From positions 28,861-92,860 of IMG/VR virus record IMGVR_UViG_2627853687_000001: a DNA stretch of 64,000 bases. The stretch is one strand, 5' to 3'. The position numbers were made by a program, and so were the translations under genes. Each line of letters begins with the position of its first letter. Position 1 is the first letter of the stretch. The DNA comes from a virus. Taxonomy: Duplodnaviria > Caudoviricetes. The notes under the pieces are model-generated. The model did no database searches. It had not been told where the DNA came from and saw only the letters and a program-made list of their open reading frames with translations. Below, in pieces: positions 9,889 through 27,958 of this stretch.

Positions 9889-10239
9889 TTACCATGTCAC
9901 GTGCGAGCGTCTGAATAATGCCGTCGTAGTGCTGTTTTGGCGCAGCTTCCCCGTCGTCACCCACGAAAACCAGCCCCATAGCCGTACACCTTTGGTGATA
10001 TCCACGCTGTAAGCAAATCTGGGAGTTGATTCGAAGTGCGCCACCAGCTGTTCTGCACGCCATGCGAAGCACACGCCACAGATTTTGCTGAGCTCAAGCG
10101 TCACTGTGCCGCCAACGAGCATAGTTGAGGTTTCGGAACCTGCGCAGGAATTACTGTGTTTGCATGAGATTGACGTGATTTTGCAGTTATCAGCACGCCA
10201 GGCCAGCTGAGCCAGCCAGATAATTTTCTGCATTTCCAT
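9889..10239 (-). CDS. hypothetical protein (possibly frameshifted with 9842-10072)
   Basis: TAATG overlap with the upstream gene at 10239. Confidence 0.45.
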   Translation of the reverse strand: MEMQKIIWLAQLAWRADNCKITSISCKHSNSCAGSETSTMLVGGTVTLELSKICGVCFAWRAEQLVAHFESTPRFAYSVDITKGVRLWGWFSWVTTGKLRQNSTTTALFRRSHVTW

Positions 10240-10823
10240 TACACCAGCTTCCAGTCGTTTGCGAGAATATCGGTAGAAGCCGGCGCCCAGTCAGAGACGG
10301 TCAGCTGTTCTGCATCAATGAGTAGCAGCTGGGGCATCTGCGTGACAGTAGCCTCCGGGTTGCAGTCAAAGTAACGAGCCGGTACGCCGTACATGTCTGT
10401 CCCGTTCAGTGTGGCGCGCATCATGCCTCTGCTGAGGCGCAGATATACACCCTTCCCCCACGCTGCCCGCGCTACCTTGCAGCCCTCTGACAGCCATAAC
10501 TGCGCCACGGCCAACGGTGCGTGCTCCTGCCTGAAATTCAGTTCGCCGGTATTAATCATCGCTTCGTTGCGCAAGATCAGATCGTTGAGCTTAATCAGCG
10601 CAACACAGGCGGCGTGGTTCAGTGTTTCGCCATGACCGGTCATTGTCAGGCCGCTTTTACTAATAATGGCTGCATAACCGTCATTTTTGGTCTCAGACGT
10701 ATCTGTAATGGTATATCCGAGGCGTTCAATCACGGCCAGGAGTGCCATGTAGTCGCCTGCATAGTCGGCTTCTGCATCTGCAATCATGCCGATGGTTGCG
10801 TTTAACTGTTGAGCGGTCATCAT
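10239..10823 (-). CDS. DUF2829/Tad2-like domain protein with N-terminal extension
   Basis: C-terminal GCKVARAAWGKGVYL...WAPASTDILANDWKLV matches the DUF2829 signature. Confidence 0.8.
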   Translation of the reverse strand: MMTAQQLNATIGMIADAEADYAGDYMALLAVIERLGYTITDTSETKNDGYAAIISKSGLTMTGHGETLNHAACVALIKLNDLILRNEAMINTGELNFRQEHAPLAVAQLWLSEGCKVARAAWGKGVYLRLSRGMMRATLNGTDMYGVPARYFDCNPEATVTQMPQLLLIDAEQLTVSDWAPASTDILANDWKLV

Positions 10824-11187: not shown

Positions 11188-11293
11188 TGGCATTGTGCTG
11201 TCCGGATTCGAACCGGCTACCGTCCGTTTGTCCCCATCAGGCCTAACGGCTATTACATGGAACGGCGGTTGCTTCCGTTAAGCGACAACACAA
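11188..11293 (-). ncRNA. tRNA-like RNA with expanded anticodon arm
   Basis: Acceptor TGTGTTG/CAGCACA, D arm GCTT-AACGG-AAGC, T arm CCGG-TTCGAAT-CCGG, ~55-nt arm at the anticodon position, 3' ATGCCA. Confidence 0.65.
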
Positions 11294-11525: not shown

Positions 11526-11665
11526 GTGGTGGCCGGTGCCATATCCGGCAAGTAACCCCTCAAGTGACTGGTCAACCTGGTTACTGGCGGCTTTAACCCC
11601 TGTGTACGCGACTGAAGAAGCGGGGGCCAGTCTTGCGATCGCAGCAGCAACTGCGAATGCACCAC
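11526..11665 (-). ncRNA. cloverleaf-like structured RNA module
   Basis: GTGGTG/CACCAC closing stem, TCGCAG-TTGCTG-CTGCGA arm, GCCGG-ATATGGCA-CCGGC arm abutting the closing stem. Confidence 0.5.
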
Positions 11666-11930: not shown

Positions 11931-12042
11931 CCATGAGGCGGGACTTAAACCCGCTTTGCTTTCGCAGCCCATCGCTGACCGCCTGTGTTGATTCACAGAC
12001 AAGGCTTTCGCCCCGTGGATTCCAGATCCACAACTCCTACGG
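11931..12042 (-). ncRNA. cloverleaf-like structured RNA module with GNRA loops
   Basis: GTGGA-TCTGGAA-TCCAC, GGGC-GAAA-GCCT, TGC-GAAA-GCA and T-arm-like GCGGG-TTTAAGT-CCCGC, enclosed by a GTTGTGGTGATCG/CGATCACAACAAC stem. Confidence 0.55.
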
Positions 12043-12245: not shown

Positions 12246-12360
12246 TGGGGGGCTGGTGCCACCAGCTGTCCGATACGGAATCTACGGACGGGTCATGTAA
12301 AGGAATTTGCAAAGCGTCAGGTAACTGTTCCGTCCCACGTGCGCACAGCCGCATTCCCCC
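12246..12360 (-). ncRNA. cloverleaf-like structured RNA module
   Basis: GGGGG/CCCCC(CA) closing stem, TGCG-GCTGTG-CGCA, GGACGG/CCGTCC long arm, GCTGG-TGGCA-CCAGC arm. Confidence 0.5.
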
Positions 12361-12437
12361 ATTTGTGAGCGCGCTGACAGAGGTAATCTTTCGCCAAACG
12401 CCAGTAAAACGACAGAAGCATCAGCGCGCTCACAAAT
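12361..12437. repeat. perfect 17-bp inverted repeat
   Basis: ATTTGTGAGCGCGCTGA (12361-12377) / TCAGCGCGCTCACAAAT (12421-12437). Confidence 0.95.
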
Positions 12438-12611
12438 AGTGATCCCTTACGAGGATCAGGCGGGAACATGTTTAAGCCTCATGGGGCGTTCTATGCGCGG
12501 GATTAGTCCATCAACCGCGTTCACTGCCATGACAGGAGGGGCTACTTGCCGTTCACCCTACTCATAACACACCCGGAAAAAGCTAATAACCGGGTGCGGC
12601 CCGTTACGAAC

Positions 12612-12675
12612 TGGTGCAGGTTGGCGGAATTGAACCGCCGACAATGGAACACTCTACCGACTGAGCTAAACCTGC
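12612..12675 (-). tRNA. 64-nt tRNA-like gene lacking the anticodon stem (pseudo-tRNA or decoy)
   Basis: GCAGGTT TA GCTC AGTCGGTA GAGT G TTCCATTGTC GGCGG TTCAATT CCGCC AACCTGC A CCA: intact acceptor, D and T arms plus encoded CCA, with only 10 nt where ~22 are expected. Confidence 0.8.
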
Positions 12676-13024
12676 TGAATAATTGCCGGTGCATACCCGG
12701 CGCGGACACTTAGGTATCTGGTCAACCTGCCCGCTTGCGGTAACAAATAGGTGTGGAGGCACCTGCCAGATTTGCATTGCGTTTGCCTCGCTGCCGAAGC
12801 GTTTCCCCGTTTCAGCCGTCAGCACACCTTGATGCGCTCACGGCTGAGCCTGGAAAAAAGGCCCGGAAACTACCGGGCATAAAATCCTACACACACAGCA
12901 AAGCCTACTCTGGAATAGACTTTGATTTGTGAAAAAATGCGGATTAAACAGACAGTTATGCCTAACCCGCCAAATGCCTATCATGATTTTGTATAGAGCC
13001 GAGATGCCCTTGTCAGCGGGGAGA

Positions 13025-13110: not shown

Positions 13111-14400
13111 TTAGCGGCGCTTTACTTTCGGGTTTGTAATGTTCTCAATATCGCCGTTGGCTTTCGCCCATTTTATACACCAGCTGTTCACGGCAGCGCG
13201 GATCTCCATCACAGAAGCCTCGCTTAACCCCTTCACTTTCGCCAGCTCAGCAGGGAGCTCGCCACCAGCATCGGCAACCGTCTCATATCCGGCCTTAGTC
13301 AGTGCGTTAAGGGCGCGTGTCGGTATGACCAGCTCGGAGACCGGCGAGGCTTTGCCGTCCAGAATGCGCTGGTGGAGACGTGGGAAATCCTGCGCTATGC
13401 GCTTCATGATGCGTGCGTGGAGCTCGTCGTTAACAGCGGTATCCCACATCGGCTCAAGTTCAGGCAGCAGACGGAATACCGGATTGCCCCATATACCTGG
13501 CACTACATCCATTGCAAGCATCATCGCGGTGCGGATCTGGAAATGGAAATCAGCCATTTCAATAGAGACGTCGCGGATGCCGTGGAAGACGCTCAGACCA
13601 AAGTGGAAGTTGTAGATGTAGCAGCCCACGTCACCGGAGCCGTCCGGCAGCTGAAGCAGGAACTGCTGCACGTCTTCCCGGCCATCGTGGAAATCGACAC
13701 GCTCTTTCAGGTGGTTATATAGCGCGGTTGTCTTAAGCAGGTCGTTAGCCGTCTCTGCGCGCAGGCGACGCTCATCGCCTACAACCTTATCCGCAATGTT
13801 CAGTTTGCTCTGTAAGTCCTGGCGTTTAACGCTTTCCTTTTTGCGGTCAGCGCGCATCTGCGAAATGGTTTTGTCCCGCTCGTTCAGGTCAGTTGCCAGG
13901 CGTTCAGGGTGCTTACGGCGGTACTGCGTGTGCTCCTGATTCAGCGTGGCCAGCGCCAGCTGCGCGGTCGTCAGGGCGGACTCCATATTCTGTAGCTTCG
14001 TTTCCGCTCTGATTGCCCGGTTCTCTGCTTCCAGCACGCTTTCTTTTGCCGCGTCTCTGGCTTCTTCAATGGCGTTCTGCGCATCGAGACGGATTTTCGT
14101 TATTTCGTTGTGGAGTGCGGACTGCGCGGCCAGCTGCTGCTGTACCTGCTCCAGCGCCTCGAACATCAGATTGTAGGTATCCGCTTCATAATTGAGGCGC
14201 AAACCGATATCGATCTGGATCTGCTCCAGCGCGTTAGTGCAGTTATCAAGAAGGCGCAGCTCCAGGTCATCGAGCGTCAGGCGTTTACGGACGGAATTAA
14301 GCTGGCCGTAGGCGGTGACAAAGGCCTGGTGAAGTACATCGTCATCAACGTTGCATTCAGGGAGATTTTGCAGCTGCTGGAGTGGAGCGAGAGTTGTCAT
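13111..14400 (-). CDS. PmgS-like coiled-coil protein with C-terminal RNAP alpha-CTD-like HhH domain
   Basis: Long heptad region; C-terminal VSELVIPTRALNALTKAGYETVAD...LAKVKGLSEASVMEI; size and position like P1 pmgS. Confidence 0.7.
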   Translation of the reverse strand: MTTLAPLQQLQNLPECNVDDDVLHQAFVTAYGQLNSVRKRLTLDDLELRLLDNCTNALEQIQIDIGLRLNYEADTYNLMFEALEQVQQQLAAQSALHNEITKIRLDAQNAIEEARDAAKESVLEAENRAIRAETKLQNMESALTTAQLALATLNQEHTQYRRKHPERLATDLNERDKTISQMRADRKKESVKRQDLQSKLNIADKVVGDERRLRAETANDLLKTTALYNHLKERVDFHDGREDVQQFLLQLPDGSGDVGCYIYNFHFGLSVFHGIRDVSIEMADFHFQIRTAMMLAMDVVPGIWGNPVFRLLPELEPMWDTAVNDELHARIMKRIAQDFPRLHQRILDGKASPVSELVIPTRALNALTKAGYETVADAGGELPAELAKVKGLSEASVMEIRAAVNSWCIKWAKANGDIENITNPKVKRR

Positions 14401-14541: not shown

Positions 14542-14838
14542 TTAGAACAGTTTTAACGCCGCTATGACTAGGGCGGCTACAGTGACAATCATCACAACAT
14601 TCAACAGTACAGACGGCACTTTGATCTCGCCGGTCTCATACTCTGCCTGCGTCATGCGGCCCAGGTAACTGTGCGAGACCAGCACTGCGTTTTCGTCAAA
14701 GCTCAGCGTAACCCGGACATTCTCCAGCACCTGACGGGATACCTGTCGCGTGGCCAGCTGGACCACACCGGATCGCATTTTGCCGTTGTCGCCCATGTAA
14801 CAGACCGAATGGTAATGAAATGGCTTATTCAGGCCCAT
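14542..14838 (-). CDS. small protein with C-terminal TM helix
   Basis: 98 aa, hydrophobic C-terminus, coupled to the upstream ORF. Confidence 0.7.
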   Translation of the reverse strand: MGLNKPFHYHSVCYMGDNGKMRSGVVQLATRQVSRQVLENVRVTLSFDENAVLVSHSYLGRMTQAEYETGEIKVPSVLLNVVMIVTVAALVIAALKLF

Positions 14839-15356
14839 CAGCTGATAACTACCCAGTCACAGACGCGCATATCTTCAATGCTCATATCATGCATTTCTGT
14901 AGTGCCGTCCGGATGAGTCAGTTCCAGCACGTCACAGCCTTCATGCTCCTGCTCCAGCGACACAAAATAACCCGGCTTCCACGCTTCACGACGCATCAGC
15001 AAAGCCGGATCTTCTTTCATTTTCAGCAAGGCCTGGTCATAGCTGCACGCAATGGCACCGATACCAATTTTGCTCAAAGATTCGATCTGTGCCGTAGTCA
15101 TGCGTCCGCGTCCTTCTGTTAATGATTTTCTCAAGATGTAGCTAATCCCCTTCACGCCGCCGAAATAGTTCAGCTGGCGGTTGCTCATGCCGCTGCGCGT
15201 CATAAGCTCCTGCTTAGGTACTTTAAAAATGCCGACTTCCATAGCCATGTCGGCAAAAACCGAAAGCCCCCGGCCTAAGCTGTCGCGCGTTTTATTGCGG
15301 CGCGCATACTGCTCAAACGTGGGGCATCCGGTAAAAAATTGCGCATCAAAAAGCAC
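14838..15356 (-). CDS. protein with C-terminal DUF2829/Tad2-like domain
   Basis: SYDQALLKMK...MRREAWKPGYFV...SIEDMRVCDWVVI. Confidence 0.65.
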   Translation of the reverse strand: MLFDAQFFTGCPTFEQYARRNKTRDSLGRGLSVFADMAMEVGIFKVPKQELMTRSGMSNRQLNYFGGVKGISYILRKSLTEGRGRMTTAQIESLSKIGIGAIACSYDQALLKMKEDPALLMRREAWKPGYFVSLEQEHEGCDVLELTHPDGTTEMHDMSIEDMRVCDWVVIS

Positions 15357-27795: not shown

Positions 27796-27928
27796 GAAAT
27801 GCTCCTTGTGCGAAAAGAAGCGTCACTACAGGAGGTTCCAATCTCCGGGTGGTGACGTTGACAGGGTTGGAACTACCGGTGCACAAGAAAACCGGCCTAC
27901 CCGAAGGTAGCCCCACCAACGCCACCAT
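27788..27928 (-). CDS. ash-family leader peptide / C4 target region
   Basis: MVALVGLPSGRPVFLCTGSSNPVNVTT is ash-type; its stop overlaps the next start (ATGACTGA). Confidence 0.65.
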   Translation of the reverse strand: MVALVGLPSGRPVFLCTGSSNPVNVTTRRLEPPVVTLLFAQGAFHD

Positions 27929-27958
27929 AGATACGCCCGGAATAATCCGGACGTGGTA

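What the first reader, a model, noticed from the sequence alone, without database searches (positions are those of the whole stretch)
12612..12675. tRNA with intact acceptor, D and T arms plus CCA but no anticodon arm
Seen: 7/7 acceptor pairs, 5/5 T-stem pairs with a TTCAATT loop, canonical TAGCTCAGTCGGTAGAG D arm and an encoded CCA. Only TTCCATTGTC lies between the D and T arms, ~12 nt short. Inference: the absence of decay elsewhere suggests either a recent deletion or a selected elbow/acceptor-only mimic. Such an RNA could be charged or bound by EF-Tu or toxins but could not decode or be cut by anticodon nucleases.
Basis: partly seen in the sequence, partly recalled or inferred. Interest (0 to 1): 0.75.

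Follow-up and report, generated by a model that had tools for sequence, protein, structure and literature searches.

The report
Conserved tRNA-Thr copy lacking anticodon arm
A small group of Pantoea phage-plasmids carries a threonine-tRNA gene that lost its anticodon arm long ago but has kept the rest of its L-shape, so it probably serves as a tRNA-shaped handle or mimic and cannot decode.

Summary
On the minus strand at 12612-12675 lies a 64-nt tRNA-like gene with a 7-bp acceptor stem, D arm, T arm, A73 and CCA. Only 11 nt join the D and T arms. Rfam's tRNA model scores 49 bits; ARAGORN rejects it.

It derives from the P1-family phage tRNA-Thr(UGU), less 12 nt (anticodon loop plus the 3' stem strand). 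The window is a P1-like Pantoea phage-plasmid with no canonical tRNA.

The deletion is neither an assembly error nor recent. Of 26 related loci, 14 carry the same arm-less form, 12 carry a different 73-nt non-decoding tRNA-like allele, and none has an intact tRNA-Thr.

Between lineages about 26% diverged here, the element differs at 7 of 64 positions. None breaks a pair and one is a compensatory pair, while adjacent spacer and loop segments diverged heavily.

It sits 8 nt after a covarying hairpin that in P1 and many prophages precedes DicF-type sRNAs, and in a Citrobacter relative an intact tRNA. Two RNA libraries hold contigs across it.

Best reading (about 0.6): a selected, non-decoding tRNA-shaped RNA matured by RNase P, comparable to plant mitochondrial t-elements. 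A trans-acting decoy is the bolder option. A slowly decaying pseudogene remains a serious rival (about 0.33).

The parts
12612..12675 (-). 64-nt arm-less tRNA-Thr derivative ('type A'). RNA position i corresponds to window coordinate 12676-i. Acceptor 5' strand 12675-12669; U8/A9 12668-12667; D arm 12666-12651; 11-nt linker (position 26, five leftover anticodon-stem nt plus one more, and variable loop TGTC) 12650-12640; T arm 12639-12623; acceptor 3' strand 12622-12616; A73 and CCA 12615-12612.
   Evidence: Sequence; Rfam tRNA 49 bits; fold; own model R1 scores 99 bits on itself and 45 bits on P1 tRNA-Thr with a 12-nt insert.
12676..12683 (-). 8-nt A/U-rich spacer (ATTATTCA) between the upstream hairpins and G1 of the tRNA-like. 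It is the expected RNase P leader.
   Evidence: Sequence. It varies among relatives (ATTATTCA, AGTATTCA, AATATTCA, CCAATTCA, CTAATTCA) while both neighbours are conserved.
12685..12701 (-). Second upstream hairpin, GCCGG-GTATGCA-CCGGC.
   Evidence: Identical in all 26 related loci, which were found through it. P1 has a different 5-bp hairpin (AACGC/GCGTT) at the same place and the Citrobacter and Enterobacter relatives have GCCGG variants (read by eye).
12699..12737 (-). Conserved hairpin motif: a 7-bp covarying stem (GCGGGCA/TGTCCGC) around GGTTGACCAGATACCTAAG. It is shared with P1's annotated 'dicF-like region' and with many prophage loci.
   Evidence: 30 distinct versions were tabulated. 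Across 23 of them (28 allowing one mismatch) the 7 inner pairs are kept through double changes: GCGGGCA, GTAACCA, GCGGCCA, GTTGCCA and GTTGTCA, each with a matching 3' strand. P1 annotation. More than 120 viral contigs carry it.
12412..12611 (-). Downstream part of the conserved noncoding block, made of hairpin-rich modules and ending at the hairpin 12440-12458 (TGATCCTCGTAAGGGATCA).
   Evidence: Sliding identity to L003 is 52-58 of 64 against a median of 47.5. Hairpin. The same module occurs in Enterobacter and Leclercia plasmids at another position.
12445..12776 (.). Stretch covered by a 331-nt contig of an RNA-seq library (X19). A size-fractionated RNA library (X20) gives contigs 12569-12757 and 12740-12970.
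   Evidence: Contigs show neither strand nor ends, and DNA carry-over cannot be excluded.
11549..11587 (-). Second copy of the hairpin motif (stem GTAACC/GGTTAC), followed by its own GCCGG/CCGGC hairpin and then a small ORF region.

Best explanation
The element is a non-decoding derivative of the P1-family phage tRNA-Thr(UGU) that has been kept under selection since it lost its anticodon loop and the 3' strand of its anticodon stem.

Proposed working:
1. It is transcribed on the minus strand as part of a roughly 330-nt conserved noncoding unit (hairpin motif, 8-nt spacer, tRNA-like, downstream hairpin modules).
2. RNase P cuts at G1, 8 nt after the conserved hairpins, and the usual tRNA 3'-end enzymes trim to the encoded CCA.
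3. The product is a 64-nt RNA with an intact acceptor/T-arm helix, D arm, elbow and tertiary core, but nothing that can read a codon.

What is kept is exactly what RNase P, the CCA enzyme and other readers of the acceptor end or elbow need. I therefore take the minimal function to be a tRNA-shaped processing and stability handle. It would define the ends of the flanking small-RNA modules, like plant mitochondrial t-elements (about 0.35 of total probability). A trans-acting mimic or decoy role for the released RNA comes second (about 0.2).

Shown here: the anatomy, descent from tRNA-Thr, the age and conservation of the deletion, the cassette context, and presence in RNA libraries. Inferred: RNase P cleavage, the mature ends, stability, and any role.
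For: Descent:
- 451 phage records match the 64 nt, and the annotated features under the listed matches are tRNA-Thr. The 13 full-length matches span 76-nt genes with a 12-nt gap.
- P1's own tRNA-Thr is the best non-self hit of a model built from the element, at 45 bits with a 12-nt insert.
- In a Pantoea host genome the best hit is tRNA-Thr(UGU), whose acceptor stem shares 5-6 of 7 pairs with the element.

Age and conservation:
- The same deletion is in 14 of 26 related loci, with 7 distinct sequences.
- Window versus the PSNIH1 lineage is 71-76% identical over the region. The element is 57/64 identical against a median of 47.5/64 for 158 sliding windows. P(<=7 differences | 26%) = 0.003.
- Inside the same block the spacer differs at 3 of 10 positions and a nearby hairpin loop is almost wholly different with an indel. 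A recent transfer of the whole block therefore does not explain the conservation.
- None of the 7 differences breaks a pair. One is the compensatory change U6:A67 to C6:G67. The rest fall at tRNA-variable positions (20, 57 purine to purine, 60, linker). U8, A14, G15, G18, G19, A21, G46, C48 and T54-T55-C56-A58 are kept in both deep lineages.
- Over both alleles, 5 of 8 stem substitutions preserve pairing (P = 0.03 at a 25% expectation).

Slot logic:
- The upstream hairpin is supported by covariation.
- In P1 and in more than 120 prophage contigs it precedes a small RNA with a terminator.
- In a Citrobacter relative it precedes an intact tRNA(CAT) at the same spacing.
- In 12 Pantoea loci it precedes a second 73-nt tRNA-like allele. 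That allele also keeps a 7-bp acceptor stem, T arm, A73 and CCA but has no usable anticodon loop.
- Both alleles occur on identical flanks.

Expression: contigs from two RNA libraries of different studies cover the element and only part of the 801-nt stretch laid (13 and 16 of 30 bins).

Precedent:
- The window encodes a C4 antisense RNA (84 bits). The reference list of PMC5499578 cites its P1/P7 homologue's precursor as an RNase P substrate.
- The same paper describes t-elements as degenerate tRNAs with acceptor/T-arm mimics that lack the anticodon arm and act as RNase P/Z cleavage signals (passage read).
Against: - Covariation is thin: 1 of 16 pairs has a double change. The shuffle control is reached in 25 of 500 shuffles for paired cells and for the covariation score, and in 250 of 500 for pairs with a change on both sides.
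- Three tip variants damage the fold: L017 G52A, L018 G49U, and L023 G19C in the elbow. One type B variant also breaks a T-stem pair.
- One lineage (L027, L272) encodes UCA instead of CCA.
- The genome has no functional tRNA at all, so this tRNA region may simply be decaying.
- The form is narrowly distributed: 3 of 72,556 PLSDB plasmids. It was not found among 151 Erwiniaceae species genomes at E <= 1e-10, where only 76-nt tRNAs scored; at most 35 candidates per genome were scored.
- The RNA evidence is contigs only, with no strand and no ends. One 'RNA' run held the whole plasmid as a single 98-kb contig, which shows that DNA can be present in such libraries.
- The contigs run across both ends of the element, so they show unprocessed RNA or DNA, not a mature 64-mer.
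- A scan for other T-arm-like hairpins found no array of such elements.
- In P1 and Qin-type loci the hairpin works without any tRNA next to it.
Confidence: 0.58

Rival explanations
1. Pseudogene. An ancestral phage tRNA-Thr lost 12 nt by a slip or deletion, stopped working, and is drifting. It looks conserved only because it lies inside a conserved, recombining noncoding block.
For: - The whole genome has 0 canonical tRNAs, whereas P1, P7 and other relatives keep 2-4, so this lineage appears to be losing its tRNA set.
- A second tRNA-model hit at 11193-11292 is also aberrant (24.5 bits, 39-nt insert).
- Tip variants break pairs or the G19 elbow contact, and one lineage has UCA for CCA.
- The two alleles sit on identical flanks, which shows active recombination here and could homogenise the block.
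- Covariation statistics are weak.
- No function is known for an anticodon-less tRNA in bacteria. My searches listed none for phages or plasmids.
Against: - The deletion has survived a divergence of about 26% in the region with only 7 of 64 changes, none of which breaks a pair.
- Unconstrained segments a few bases away are heavily diverged.
- All tertiary-core nucleotides are kept.
- A second, independently aberrant allele keeps the same acceptor, T arm and CCA.
Confidence: 0.33
2. Trans-acting decoy or mimic. The released acceptor/elbow RNA soaks up a host or competitor factor that reads tRNA from the acceptor end. Candidates are CCA-modifying abortive-infection toxins of the AbiEii/MenT or CapRel type, acceptor-stem tRNases, or ThrRS. 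It would be invisible to anticodon nucleases and to the ribosome. The two alleles (Thr-like, and one with a class II-like D arm) would aim at different targets.
For: - The slot otherwise carries trans-acting small RNAs or real tRNAs.
- The acceptor stem copies the host tRNA-Thr(UGU) at 5-6 of 7 pairs, including G1:C72 and C2:G71. The compensatory change in the PSNIH1 lineage brings it closer to the host.
- The whole tertiary core is kept, which is more than a minimal RNase P substrate needs.
- Two alleles are maintained on the same flanks.
- Two neighbouring genes carry Tad2-like anti-defence domains.
- The idea that phage tRNAs could act as decoys for AbiE-type toxins is in print as a suggestion (PMC7725324, passages read).
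Against: - There is no direct evidence of any partner.
- ThrRS identity leans heavily on the anticodon (recalled), so charging is doubtful.
- The UCA lineage weakens a strict need for an encoded CCA.
- The distribution is narrow.
- No tRNA-targeting system was identified in the hosts.
Confidence: 0.2
3. The tRNA-like shape is incidental. The 64 nt are one domain of a larger structured RNA covering about 12776-12445, and conservation reflects that larger fold or a DNA-level site.
For: The conserved block and the RNA contig coincide (12745-12412 against 12445-12776). The flanks are conserved at least as well as the element.
Against: - The element is swapped as a unit for another tRNA-like, or for a real tRNA, in relatives while the flanks stay.
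- The downstream module occurs elsewhere without it.
- On its own it folds as three tRNA stems.
Confidence: 0.06
4. Assembly or sequencing artefact.
For: None found.
Against: The identical 12-nt-short form is present in complete plasmids of isolates, in virus contigs, and in DNA and RNA run contigs from several studies.
Confidence: 0.01

Closest known systems
Phage tRNA-Thr(UGU) of the P1/P7 'tRNA region' (ban operon leader: dicF-like region, tRNA-Asn, tRNA-Thr, tciABC, tRNA-Ile2)
   Same: Best sequence relatives. Same kind of genome and the same tciA-linked neighbourhood. Same acceptor features G1:C72, C2:G71 and A73, the same D arm, variable loop (U/A)UGUC, T arm and CCA.
   Different: 12 nt shorter, with no anticodon loop and no 3' anticodon-stem strand, so it cannot decode. 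It sits directly behind the dicF-type hairpin, not beside tRNA-Asn. ARAGORN does not call it.
Plant mitochondrial t-elements (degenerate tRNA-like cleavage signals for RNase P/RNase Z; PMC5499578, passage read; original papers seen only as references)
   Same: Acceptor-stem/T-arm mimic with a conserved T loop and at least a degenerate D arm. The A. thaliana nad6 element lacks the anticodon arm. They are embedded in longer transcripts whose ends they define.
   Different: Those are organellar, flank mRNAs, and their cleavage has been shown experimentally. Here the host is a phage-plasmid of Enterobacterales, the flanks are noncoding RNA modules, and cleavage is only inferred.
C4 antisense RNA of P1/P7 (Rfam RF01695), whose precursor is an RNase P substrate (citation seen in the reference list of PMC5499578)
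   Same: The same phage family uses RNase P to mature a small non-tRNA RNA. The window has its own C4 gene at 27845-27932.
   Different: C4 is a different locus, sequence and fold. The arm-less element does not match RF01695.
tRNA-like domain of tmRNA and the tRNA-like module of bacterial Y RNAs (YrlA)
   Same: These are natural tRNA mimics that keep the acceptor/T-arm and elbow and lack an anticodon arm.
   Different: tmRNA needs G3:U70 and an mRNA-like domain; here the pair is A3:U70, only 11 nt lie between the arms, and ARAGORN finds no tmRNA. YrlA closes its tRNA-like part with a Ro-binding helix and has no free CCA end; no RF02553 match was found in the window.
DicF-type prophage small-RNA loci (P1 'dicF-like region'; Qin-type prophages)
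   Same: The same covarying upstream hairpin with the loop GGTTGACCA....CCTAAG, followed after a short spacer by a small-RNA 'payload'.
   Different: The payload there is a base-pairing sRNA ended by an intrinsic terminator. Here it is a tRNA-shaped RNA with no terminator after it. That the common payload is DicF is my recognition from memory plus P1's annotation, not a family match in the window.

Membership tests
Canonical tRNA (Rfam RF00005 / cloverleaf) | 7-bp acceptor stem with discriminator base and 3' CCA | tested here: met
   GCAGGTT/AACCTGC is 7/7, followed by A73 and CCA.
Canonical tRNA (Rfam RF00005 / cloverleaf) | D arm with G18 G19, and T arm with the T54-T55-C56-R57-A58 loop | tested here: met
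   GCTC-AGTCGGTA-GAGT and GGCGG-TTCAATT-CCGCC.
Canonical tRNA (Rfam RF00005 / cloverleaf) | Anticodon arm: 5-bp stem and 7-nt loop with U33 and an anticodon | tested here: not met
   The model's 15 central anticodon-arm positions are matched by only 3 nt. Alignment to tRNA-Thr shows a 12-nt gap. No stem forms in the fold.
Canonical tRNA (Rfam RF00005 / cloverleaf) | Called by a tRNA gene finder / above the family threshold | tested here: inconclusive
   Rfam gives 49 bits, above the gathering score of 29. ARAGORN genes at default settings.
tRNA-Thr lineage | Closest full-length relatives are tRNA-Thr genes | tested here: met
   451 phage records match, and the annotated features under the listed matches are tRNA-Thr. 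P1 tRNA-Thr is the best non-self model hit. Host tRNA-Thr(UGU) is the best hit in a Pantoea genome.
tRNA-Thr lineage | ThrRS identity elements: G1:C72, C2:G71 and anticodon G35, U36 (the list is recalled, not taken from a call) | tested here: not met
   The acceptor elements are present and the anticodon elements are absent. Aminoacylation itself is not testable with these tools.
t-element-like RNase P/Z processing signal | Acceptor/T-arm mimic with a conserved T loop and a degenerate or absent anticodon or D arm | tested here: met
   The definition is taken from the passage in PMC5499578.
t-element-like RNase P/Z processing signal | Lies within a longer transcript next to functional RNAs | tested here: inconclusive
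   RNA-library contigs span it together with conserved flanks. Strand, ends and DNA carry-over are unresolved.
t-element-like RNase P/Z processing signal | Cleaved by RNase P at its 5' end and/or by RNase Z/exonucleases at its 3' end | not testable with these tools
   The only raw-read run laid had 0 reads on the stretch.
tmRNA tRNA-like domain | G3:U70 alanine identity pair and an mRNA-like tag domain between the D-loop and T-arm parts | tested here: not met
   The pair is A3:U70, and an 11-nt linker is all that lies between the arms. ARAGORN finds no tmRNA.
C4 antisense RNA (RF01695) | Match to the family model | tested here: not met
   The only C4 match in the window is at 27845-27932. There is none at this locus at E <= 10.

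The most novel reading that the evidence does not exclude
Phage-plasmids encode acceptor/elbow-only tRNA mimics as a trans-acting payload. The 64-nt tRNA-Thr(UGU) look-alike and its alternative 73-nt allele would be released by RNase P and act as sponges for host factors that read tRNAs from the CCA end or elbow. Examples are AbiEii/MenT- or CapRel-type abortive-infection toxins and acceptor-stem tRNases. The mimics would be unable to disturb decoding and immune to anticodon nucleases. The two alleles would be kept by recombination in one slot of an anti-defence-rich region as answers to different host systems.
Probability: 0.17. Interest if true: 0.85.

Novelty: new variant of a known kind. 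Interest (0 to 1): 0.5.

Why it matters
Phage tRNAs are currently explained by codon supply or by escape from anticodon nucleases. A tRNA gene that has been kept for a long time without any anticodon arm fits neither explanation.

If it is an RNase P handle, it would be a bacterial/phage counterpart of plant mitochondrial t-elements. It would show that the dicF-type prophage small-RNA cassette can use the tRNA-processing machinery in place of a terminator to make RNA ends.

If it acts in trans, it would be a new type of anti-defence or host-manipulating RNA.

If it is only a relic, it still documents how a phage-plasmid lineage lost its tRNA set. It also warns that Rfam-positive, ARAGORN-negative hits in phage tRNA regions need an anticodon check.

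Tried and rejected
0 of 119 returned stretches had the tRNA context, so it added nothing and used the only scan.
- Earlier notes of this scan: nothing by place or by sequence.
- The P1 genome paper is not held. P1 facts come from the GenBank annotation and two secondary papers.
- Literature searches for an anticodon-arm-less tRNA in phages, phage-plasmids or the dicF context listed no such description. This covers the held open-access library only.
- RNA runs: X15 holds the whole plasmid as one 98-kb contig at even depth, so it is not evidence of transcription. X21 (raw reads) laid 0 reads, so it is no test.
- A model search of 151 Erwiniaceae species genomes returned only ordinary 76-nt tRNAs at E <= 1e-10, so it gave no further arm-less copies.
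- A scan of the genome for T-arm-like hairpins found 8 on both strands. Only two are in this region, and the second (11938-11954) has a poor acceptor stem. The idea of a whole array of t-elements was dropped.
- A protein-coding reading of the upstream motif was rejected. The open frames through it are 22-77 codons and unrelated among loci, and no CDS is annotated under the match in 6 of 6 plasmid records.
- The 73-aa ORF 12604-12825 that runs through the element was rejected for the same reason.
- An RprA-like sRNA is seen in the Enterobacter and Citrobacter relatives (63 and 55 bits, below the gathering score of 70). It is not detected in the window at E <= 10, so I do not claim it here.
- tmRNA, Y RNA and C4 memberships were rejected (see Membership tests).
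- An attachment-site remnant was considered and dropped: the replicon is a P1-like plasmid prophage, both tRNA ends are intact, and the loss is internal.
Full report
WHAT IS THERE. The finding is on the minus strand. Window 12675 to 12612 reads GCAGGTT-TA-GCTC-AGTCGGTA-GAGT-GTTCCATTGTC-GGCGG-TTCAATT-CCGCC-AACCTGC-A-CCA. The acceptor stem is 7/7, the D stem 4/4 (one G:U) and the T stem 5/5, and A73 and CCA are encoded. Eleven nucleotides join the D and T stems where a class I tRNA has 23. Rfam's tRNA model scores 49 bits against a gathering score of 29, with E 7e-9 in 2.5 kb and 1.9e-7 over the window. The model's 15 central anticodon-arm positions, between its outermost anticodon-stem pair, are matched by only 3 nt. 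The MFE fold gives exactly the three stems (-21.7 kcal/mol, z -3.1, 0 of 200 shuffles as good). ARAGORN calls nothing in the window or in the whole 92,860-bp genome.

WHAT GENOME. The window is two thirds of a 92.9-kb virus record. It is a P1-like phage-plasmid. It carries a C4 antisense RNA at 84 bits, a late-promoter activator Lpa, and ParM, TerB/TciA and olxA in near-identical Pantoea plasmids of 87-95 kb. On the minus strand the element lies in a long noncoding stretch, more than 1 kb. Upstream is a gene for a protein with an RNA-polymerase alpha-CTD domain (13111-14400). Downstream are small ORFs of the tciA region. Two neighbouring genes carry Tad2-like anti-defence domains.

WHAT IT DERIVES FROM. 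A sensitive BLAST of the 64 nt against 50,697 phage records hits 451 records, and the annotated features under the listed matches are tRNA-Thr. The 13 full-length matches align 64 nt to 76-nt genes with a single 12-nt gap. Aligned with the tRNA-Thr(UGU) of a Klebsiella myovirus and of P1, the element keeps position 26, the 5' strand of the anticodon stem (TTCCA against CTTCA) and the variable loop (TTGTC against ATGTC). It lacks the anticodon loop and the 3' stem strand. A covariance model built from the arm-less copies (R1) scores P1's tRNA-Thr as its best non-self hit, at 45 bits with a 12-nt insertion. In a Pantoea host genome its best hit is tRNA-Thr(UGU), whose acceptor stem GCCGGCT/AGCCGGC shares 5-6 of 7 pairs with the element. 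[quoted passage not shown] The element is therefore the local descendant of the P1-family tRNA-Thr.

I collected related loci through the conserved upstream flank and through the element itself, from plasmids, virus contigs and genome contigs (extraction). There are 26 related loci besides the window's own genome. Some may be the same replicon held in two collections.
- 14 loci carry the same arm-less form ('type A', one cut by a contig end, 7 distinct sequences).
- 12 loci carry a different 73-nt element at exactly the same place ('type B', 6 distinct sequences).
- 0 loci carry an intact tRNA-Thr.

Type B keeps a 7-bp acceptor stem (GCATGGG/CCCATGC), a T arm, A73 and CCA. Its middle is aberrant. 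It either has a class II-like D arm followed by 19 unstructured nt, or one long central arm whose 7-nt loop has A where the universal U33 should be. Rfam's tRNA model does not report it at E <= 1, and R1 gives it 32 bits. Types A and B occur on identical flanks, for example L001 against L004, and L015/L024 against L013/L022. They therefore behave as alleles exchanged by recombination.

IS THE ARM-LESS FORM CONSTRAINED? The window and the PSNIH1-type lineage (L003) are only 71-76% identical over 7 kb around the site. In a global alignment of 2.5 kb, 64-nt sliding windows have a median of 47.5 identical positions, and clearly unconstrained stretches drop to 26-36. The element has 57 of 64 identical and lies in a conserved block, 12745-12412. 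Seven or fewer differences is unlikely at the regional rate (P = 0.003 at 26%).

The block is not simply young. Within it, the 10 nt before the element differ at 3 positions, and a hairpin loop 25 nt after it is almost entirely different with an indel.

The 7 differences are tRNA-aware. U6:A67 becomes C6:G67 (compensatory). The others fall at position 20, at purine 57, at position 60 and in the linker. No pair is broken, and U8, A14, G15, G18, G19, A21, G46, C48 and the T54-T55-C56-A58 positions of the T loop are untouched.

On all 7 distinct type A sequences, 98.2% of cells pair. One pair has a double change and one varies G:C to G:U. Two tips break a pair (L017 G52A, L018 G49U). The shuffle control is only weakly exceeded, in 25 of 500 shuffles for paired cells and for the covariation score, and for pairs with a change on both sides it is reached in 250 of 500.

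Counting both alleles, 5 of 8 stem substitutions preserve pairing, against about 25% expected (P = 0.03).

Against constraint: L023 has G19C in the elbow. L027 and L272 encode UCA for CCA. One type B copy breaks a T-stem pair. I read this as real but moderate purifying selection on the L-shape, with slightly damaged tips.

CONTEXT: A dicF-TYPE CASSETTE. The 45 nt upstream are identical across the Pantoea loci and form two hairpins. The first is a 7-bp stem around GGTTGACCAGATACCTAAG. Across 30 distinct versions the stem covaries (GCGGGCA, GTAACCA, GCGGCCA, GTTGCCA and GTTGTCA, each with its complement) while the loop stays constant. It is not coding: the open frames through it are short and unrelated.

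The motif lies inside the feature that the P1 record annotates as 'dicF-like region'. There it is followed after a short spacer by a small RNA ending in an intrinsic terminator. I recognise the commonest of these as DicF from memory.

In a Citrobacter P1-like plasmid the same two hairpins are followed, at the same spacing, by an intact tRNA(CAT) at 73 bits. In an Enterobacter plasmid they are followed by another hairpin RNA. The window has a second copy of the motif at 11549-11587, ahead of a small ORF.

The slot behind the hairpin is therefore a place where these elements put small-RNA payloads. In the Pantoea group the payload is a tRNA-shaped RNA that cannot decode. No terminator follows the element. 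A strong terminator lies upstream at 12861-12878, and a weak hairpin at 12440-12458 closes the conserved block.

EXPRESSION. Of the four runs laid:
- An RNA-seq library (X19) holds one isolated 331-nt contig covering 12445-12776, which is the conserved block.
- A size-fractionated RNA library (X20) from another study holds contigs 12569-12757 and 12740-12970.
- X15 holds the entire plasmid as one 98-kb contig, so it is uninformative.
- X21 (raw reads) had no reads on the stretch.

Patchy coverage that matches the conserved block suggests transcription. However, contigs give no strand and no ends, and I had no second lay for a silent control. The contigs cross both ends of the element, so they represent unprocessed RNA, or DNA.

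HOW IT MOST LIKELY WORKS. The parts kept are the acceptor/T-arm helix, the elbow, the tertiary core, A73 and (mostly) CCA. This is the set recognised by RNase P, the CCA-adding and 3'-trimming enzymes, and other factors that read the acceptor end or elbow. The part lost is what the ribosome, anticodon nucleases and anticodon-reading synthetases need.

The same phage family is cited as maturing its C4 RNA with RNase P (reference list of PMC5499578). Plant mitochondria use 't-elements', degenerate tRNAs with acceptor/T-arm mimics, of which the nad6 example lacks the anticodon arm, as RNase P/Z cleavage signals for transcript ends (passage read).

I therefore propose this sequence of events. The element is transcribed within the conserved unit. 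RNase P cuts 8 nt after the hairpins, and 3' processing trims to CCA. The minimal function is then a processing and stability handle for the neighbouring RNA modules (about 0.35). The bolder alternative is that the released 64-mer acts in trans as an acceptor-end or elbow mimic (about 0.2). That reading fits three observations: the slot otherwise holds trans-acting RNAs, the acceptor stem copies host tRNA-Thr(UGU), and two alleles are maintained near anti-defence genes. A suggestion that phage tRNAs may be decoys for AbiE-type CCA-modifying toxins is in print (PMC7725324, passages read). Together I give 'selected, RNase P-matured, non-decoding tRNA-shaped RNA' about 0.58. Anatomy, descent, age, conservation and context are shown. 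Cleavage, mature ends, stability and role are inferred.

THE MAIN RIVAL is a pseudogene (about 0.33). This genome has no working tRNA, and a second tRNA-model hit at 11193-11292 is also aberrant. Damaged tips and a UCA lineage exist. Covariation is thin. The form is confined to a small clade: 3 of 72,556 PLSDB plasmids, and none among 151 Erwiniaceae species genomes at E <= 1e-10. Recombination may partly homogenise the block.

COMPARISON AND NOVELTY. By its defining anticodon arm, the element is not a member of the canonical tRNAs. By descent it is a tRNA-Thr. By anatomy it works like, or at least looks like, a t-element. It is not a tmRNA domain (A3:U70, no tag domain), not a C4 RNA and not a YrlA-type Y RNA. 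My six literature searches listed no description of an anticodon-arm-less tRNA kept in a phage or phage-plasmid, nor of tRNA-like payloads in dicF-type cassettes. The library holds open-access papers only, and the supplements of the papers read were not available. I rate it a new variant of a known kind, of moderate interest. The anatomy and its persistence are solid, but function is not shown.

Noticed in passing
window 12699-12737 and 11549-11587 (minus); L035 (P1) 12795-12833; more than 120 virus contigs: A hairpin with an invariant loop GGTTGACCA....CCTAAG and a strongly covarying 7-bp stem is shared by P1's 'dicF-like region', Qin-type prophage loci upstream of DicF-type sRNAs, and these phage-plasmids. 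It looks like a generic leader or processing element for prophage small-RNA payloads and matches no Rfam family.
   Followed up: partly
window 11193-11292 (minus): A second, weaker tRNA-model match (24.5 bits, below the threshold of 29). It has acceptor, D and T arms, but a 39-nt extended hairpin where the anticodon loop should be, and no CCA. Similar long tRNA-like matches occur in the Citrobacter (31.3 bits) and Enterobacter (27.4 bits) relatives.
   Followed up: partly
L002 4313-4385 and 11 other loci (type B); L032 2406-2491: The alternative 73-nt allele shares its acceptor stem GCATGGG/CCCATGC with an 86-nt class II-like tRNA of a Leclercia plasmid. ARAGORN calls that one 'Val(aac)' with a poor anticodon stem. 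A second lineage of doubtful, possibly non-decoding tRNAs therefore circulates in these plasmids.
   Followed up: partly
L003 3485-3568 and L006 485-568 (minus): The PSNIH1-type plasmids carry an 84-nt gene that ARAGORN calls 'tRNA-Stop(tta)', with anticodon loop CTTTAAC and a long variable arm. It is a possible ochre-suppressor-like tRNA and is absent from the window.
   Followed up: no
L035 (P1) 12873-12977: There is a weak match to the permuted-tmRNA model (24 bits, E 0.26). By eye, the matched stretch reads in frame as ...A-N-D-D-L-M-M-V-A-A-stop, which is reminiscent of an SsrA tag. It may be chance.
   Followed up: no
window 14838-15356 and 10239-10823 (minus): Two proteins with Tad2-like (Thoeris anti-defence 2) domains flank the RNA-rich region. 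RefSeq names the second one a 'MW1434 family type I TA system toxin' in relatives.
   Followed up: no
window 12850-12935 (minus); L031 1894-1996; L033 1856-1983: The Enterobacter and Citrobacter relatives have RprA-like sRNAs (63 and 55 bits, below the gathering score of 70). By eye, the window has a similar terminator-ended module (…TTGCTGTGTGTGTAGG… followed by GCCCGG/CCGGGC and a T run). Rfam does not call it RprA.
   Followed up: partly
window 27845-27932 (minus): A C4 antisense RNA (RF01695, 84 bits), the immunity RNA of P1/P7-type phages.
   Followed up: no
window 12363-12440: A 17-bp perfect inverted repeat (ATTTGTGAGCGCGCTGA … TCAGCGCGCTCACAAAT) about 45 nt apart. Next to it (about 12318-12350, minus) lies a GGGGGAATGCGGCTGTGCGCACGTGGG module that in P1 and Leclercia relatives gives sub-threshold STnc100 matches (33 and 36 bits).
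   Followed up: no
run X15: A library labelled RNA-Seq contains the whole phage-plasmid as one 98-kb contig at even depth. This suggests DNA in the library or a mislabelled run.
   Followed up: no
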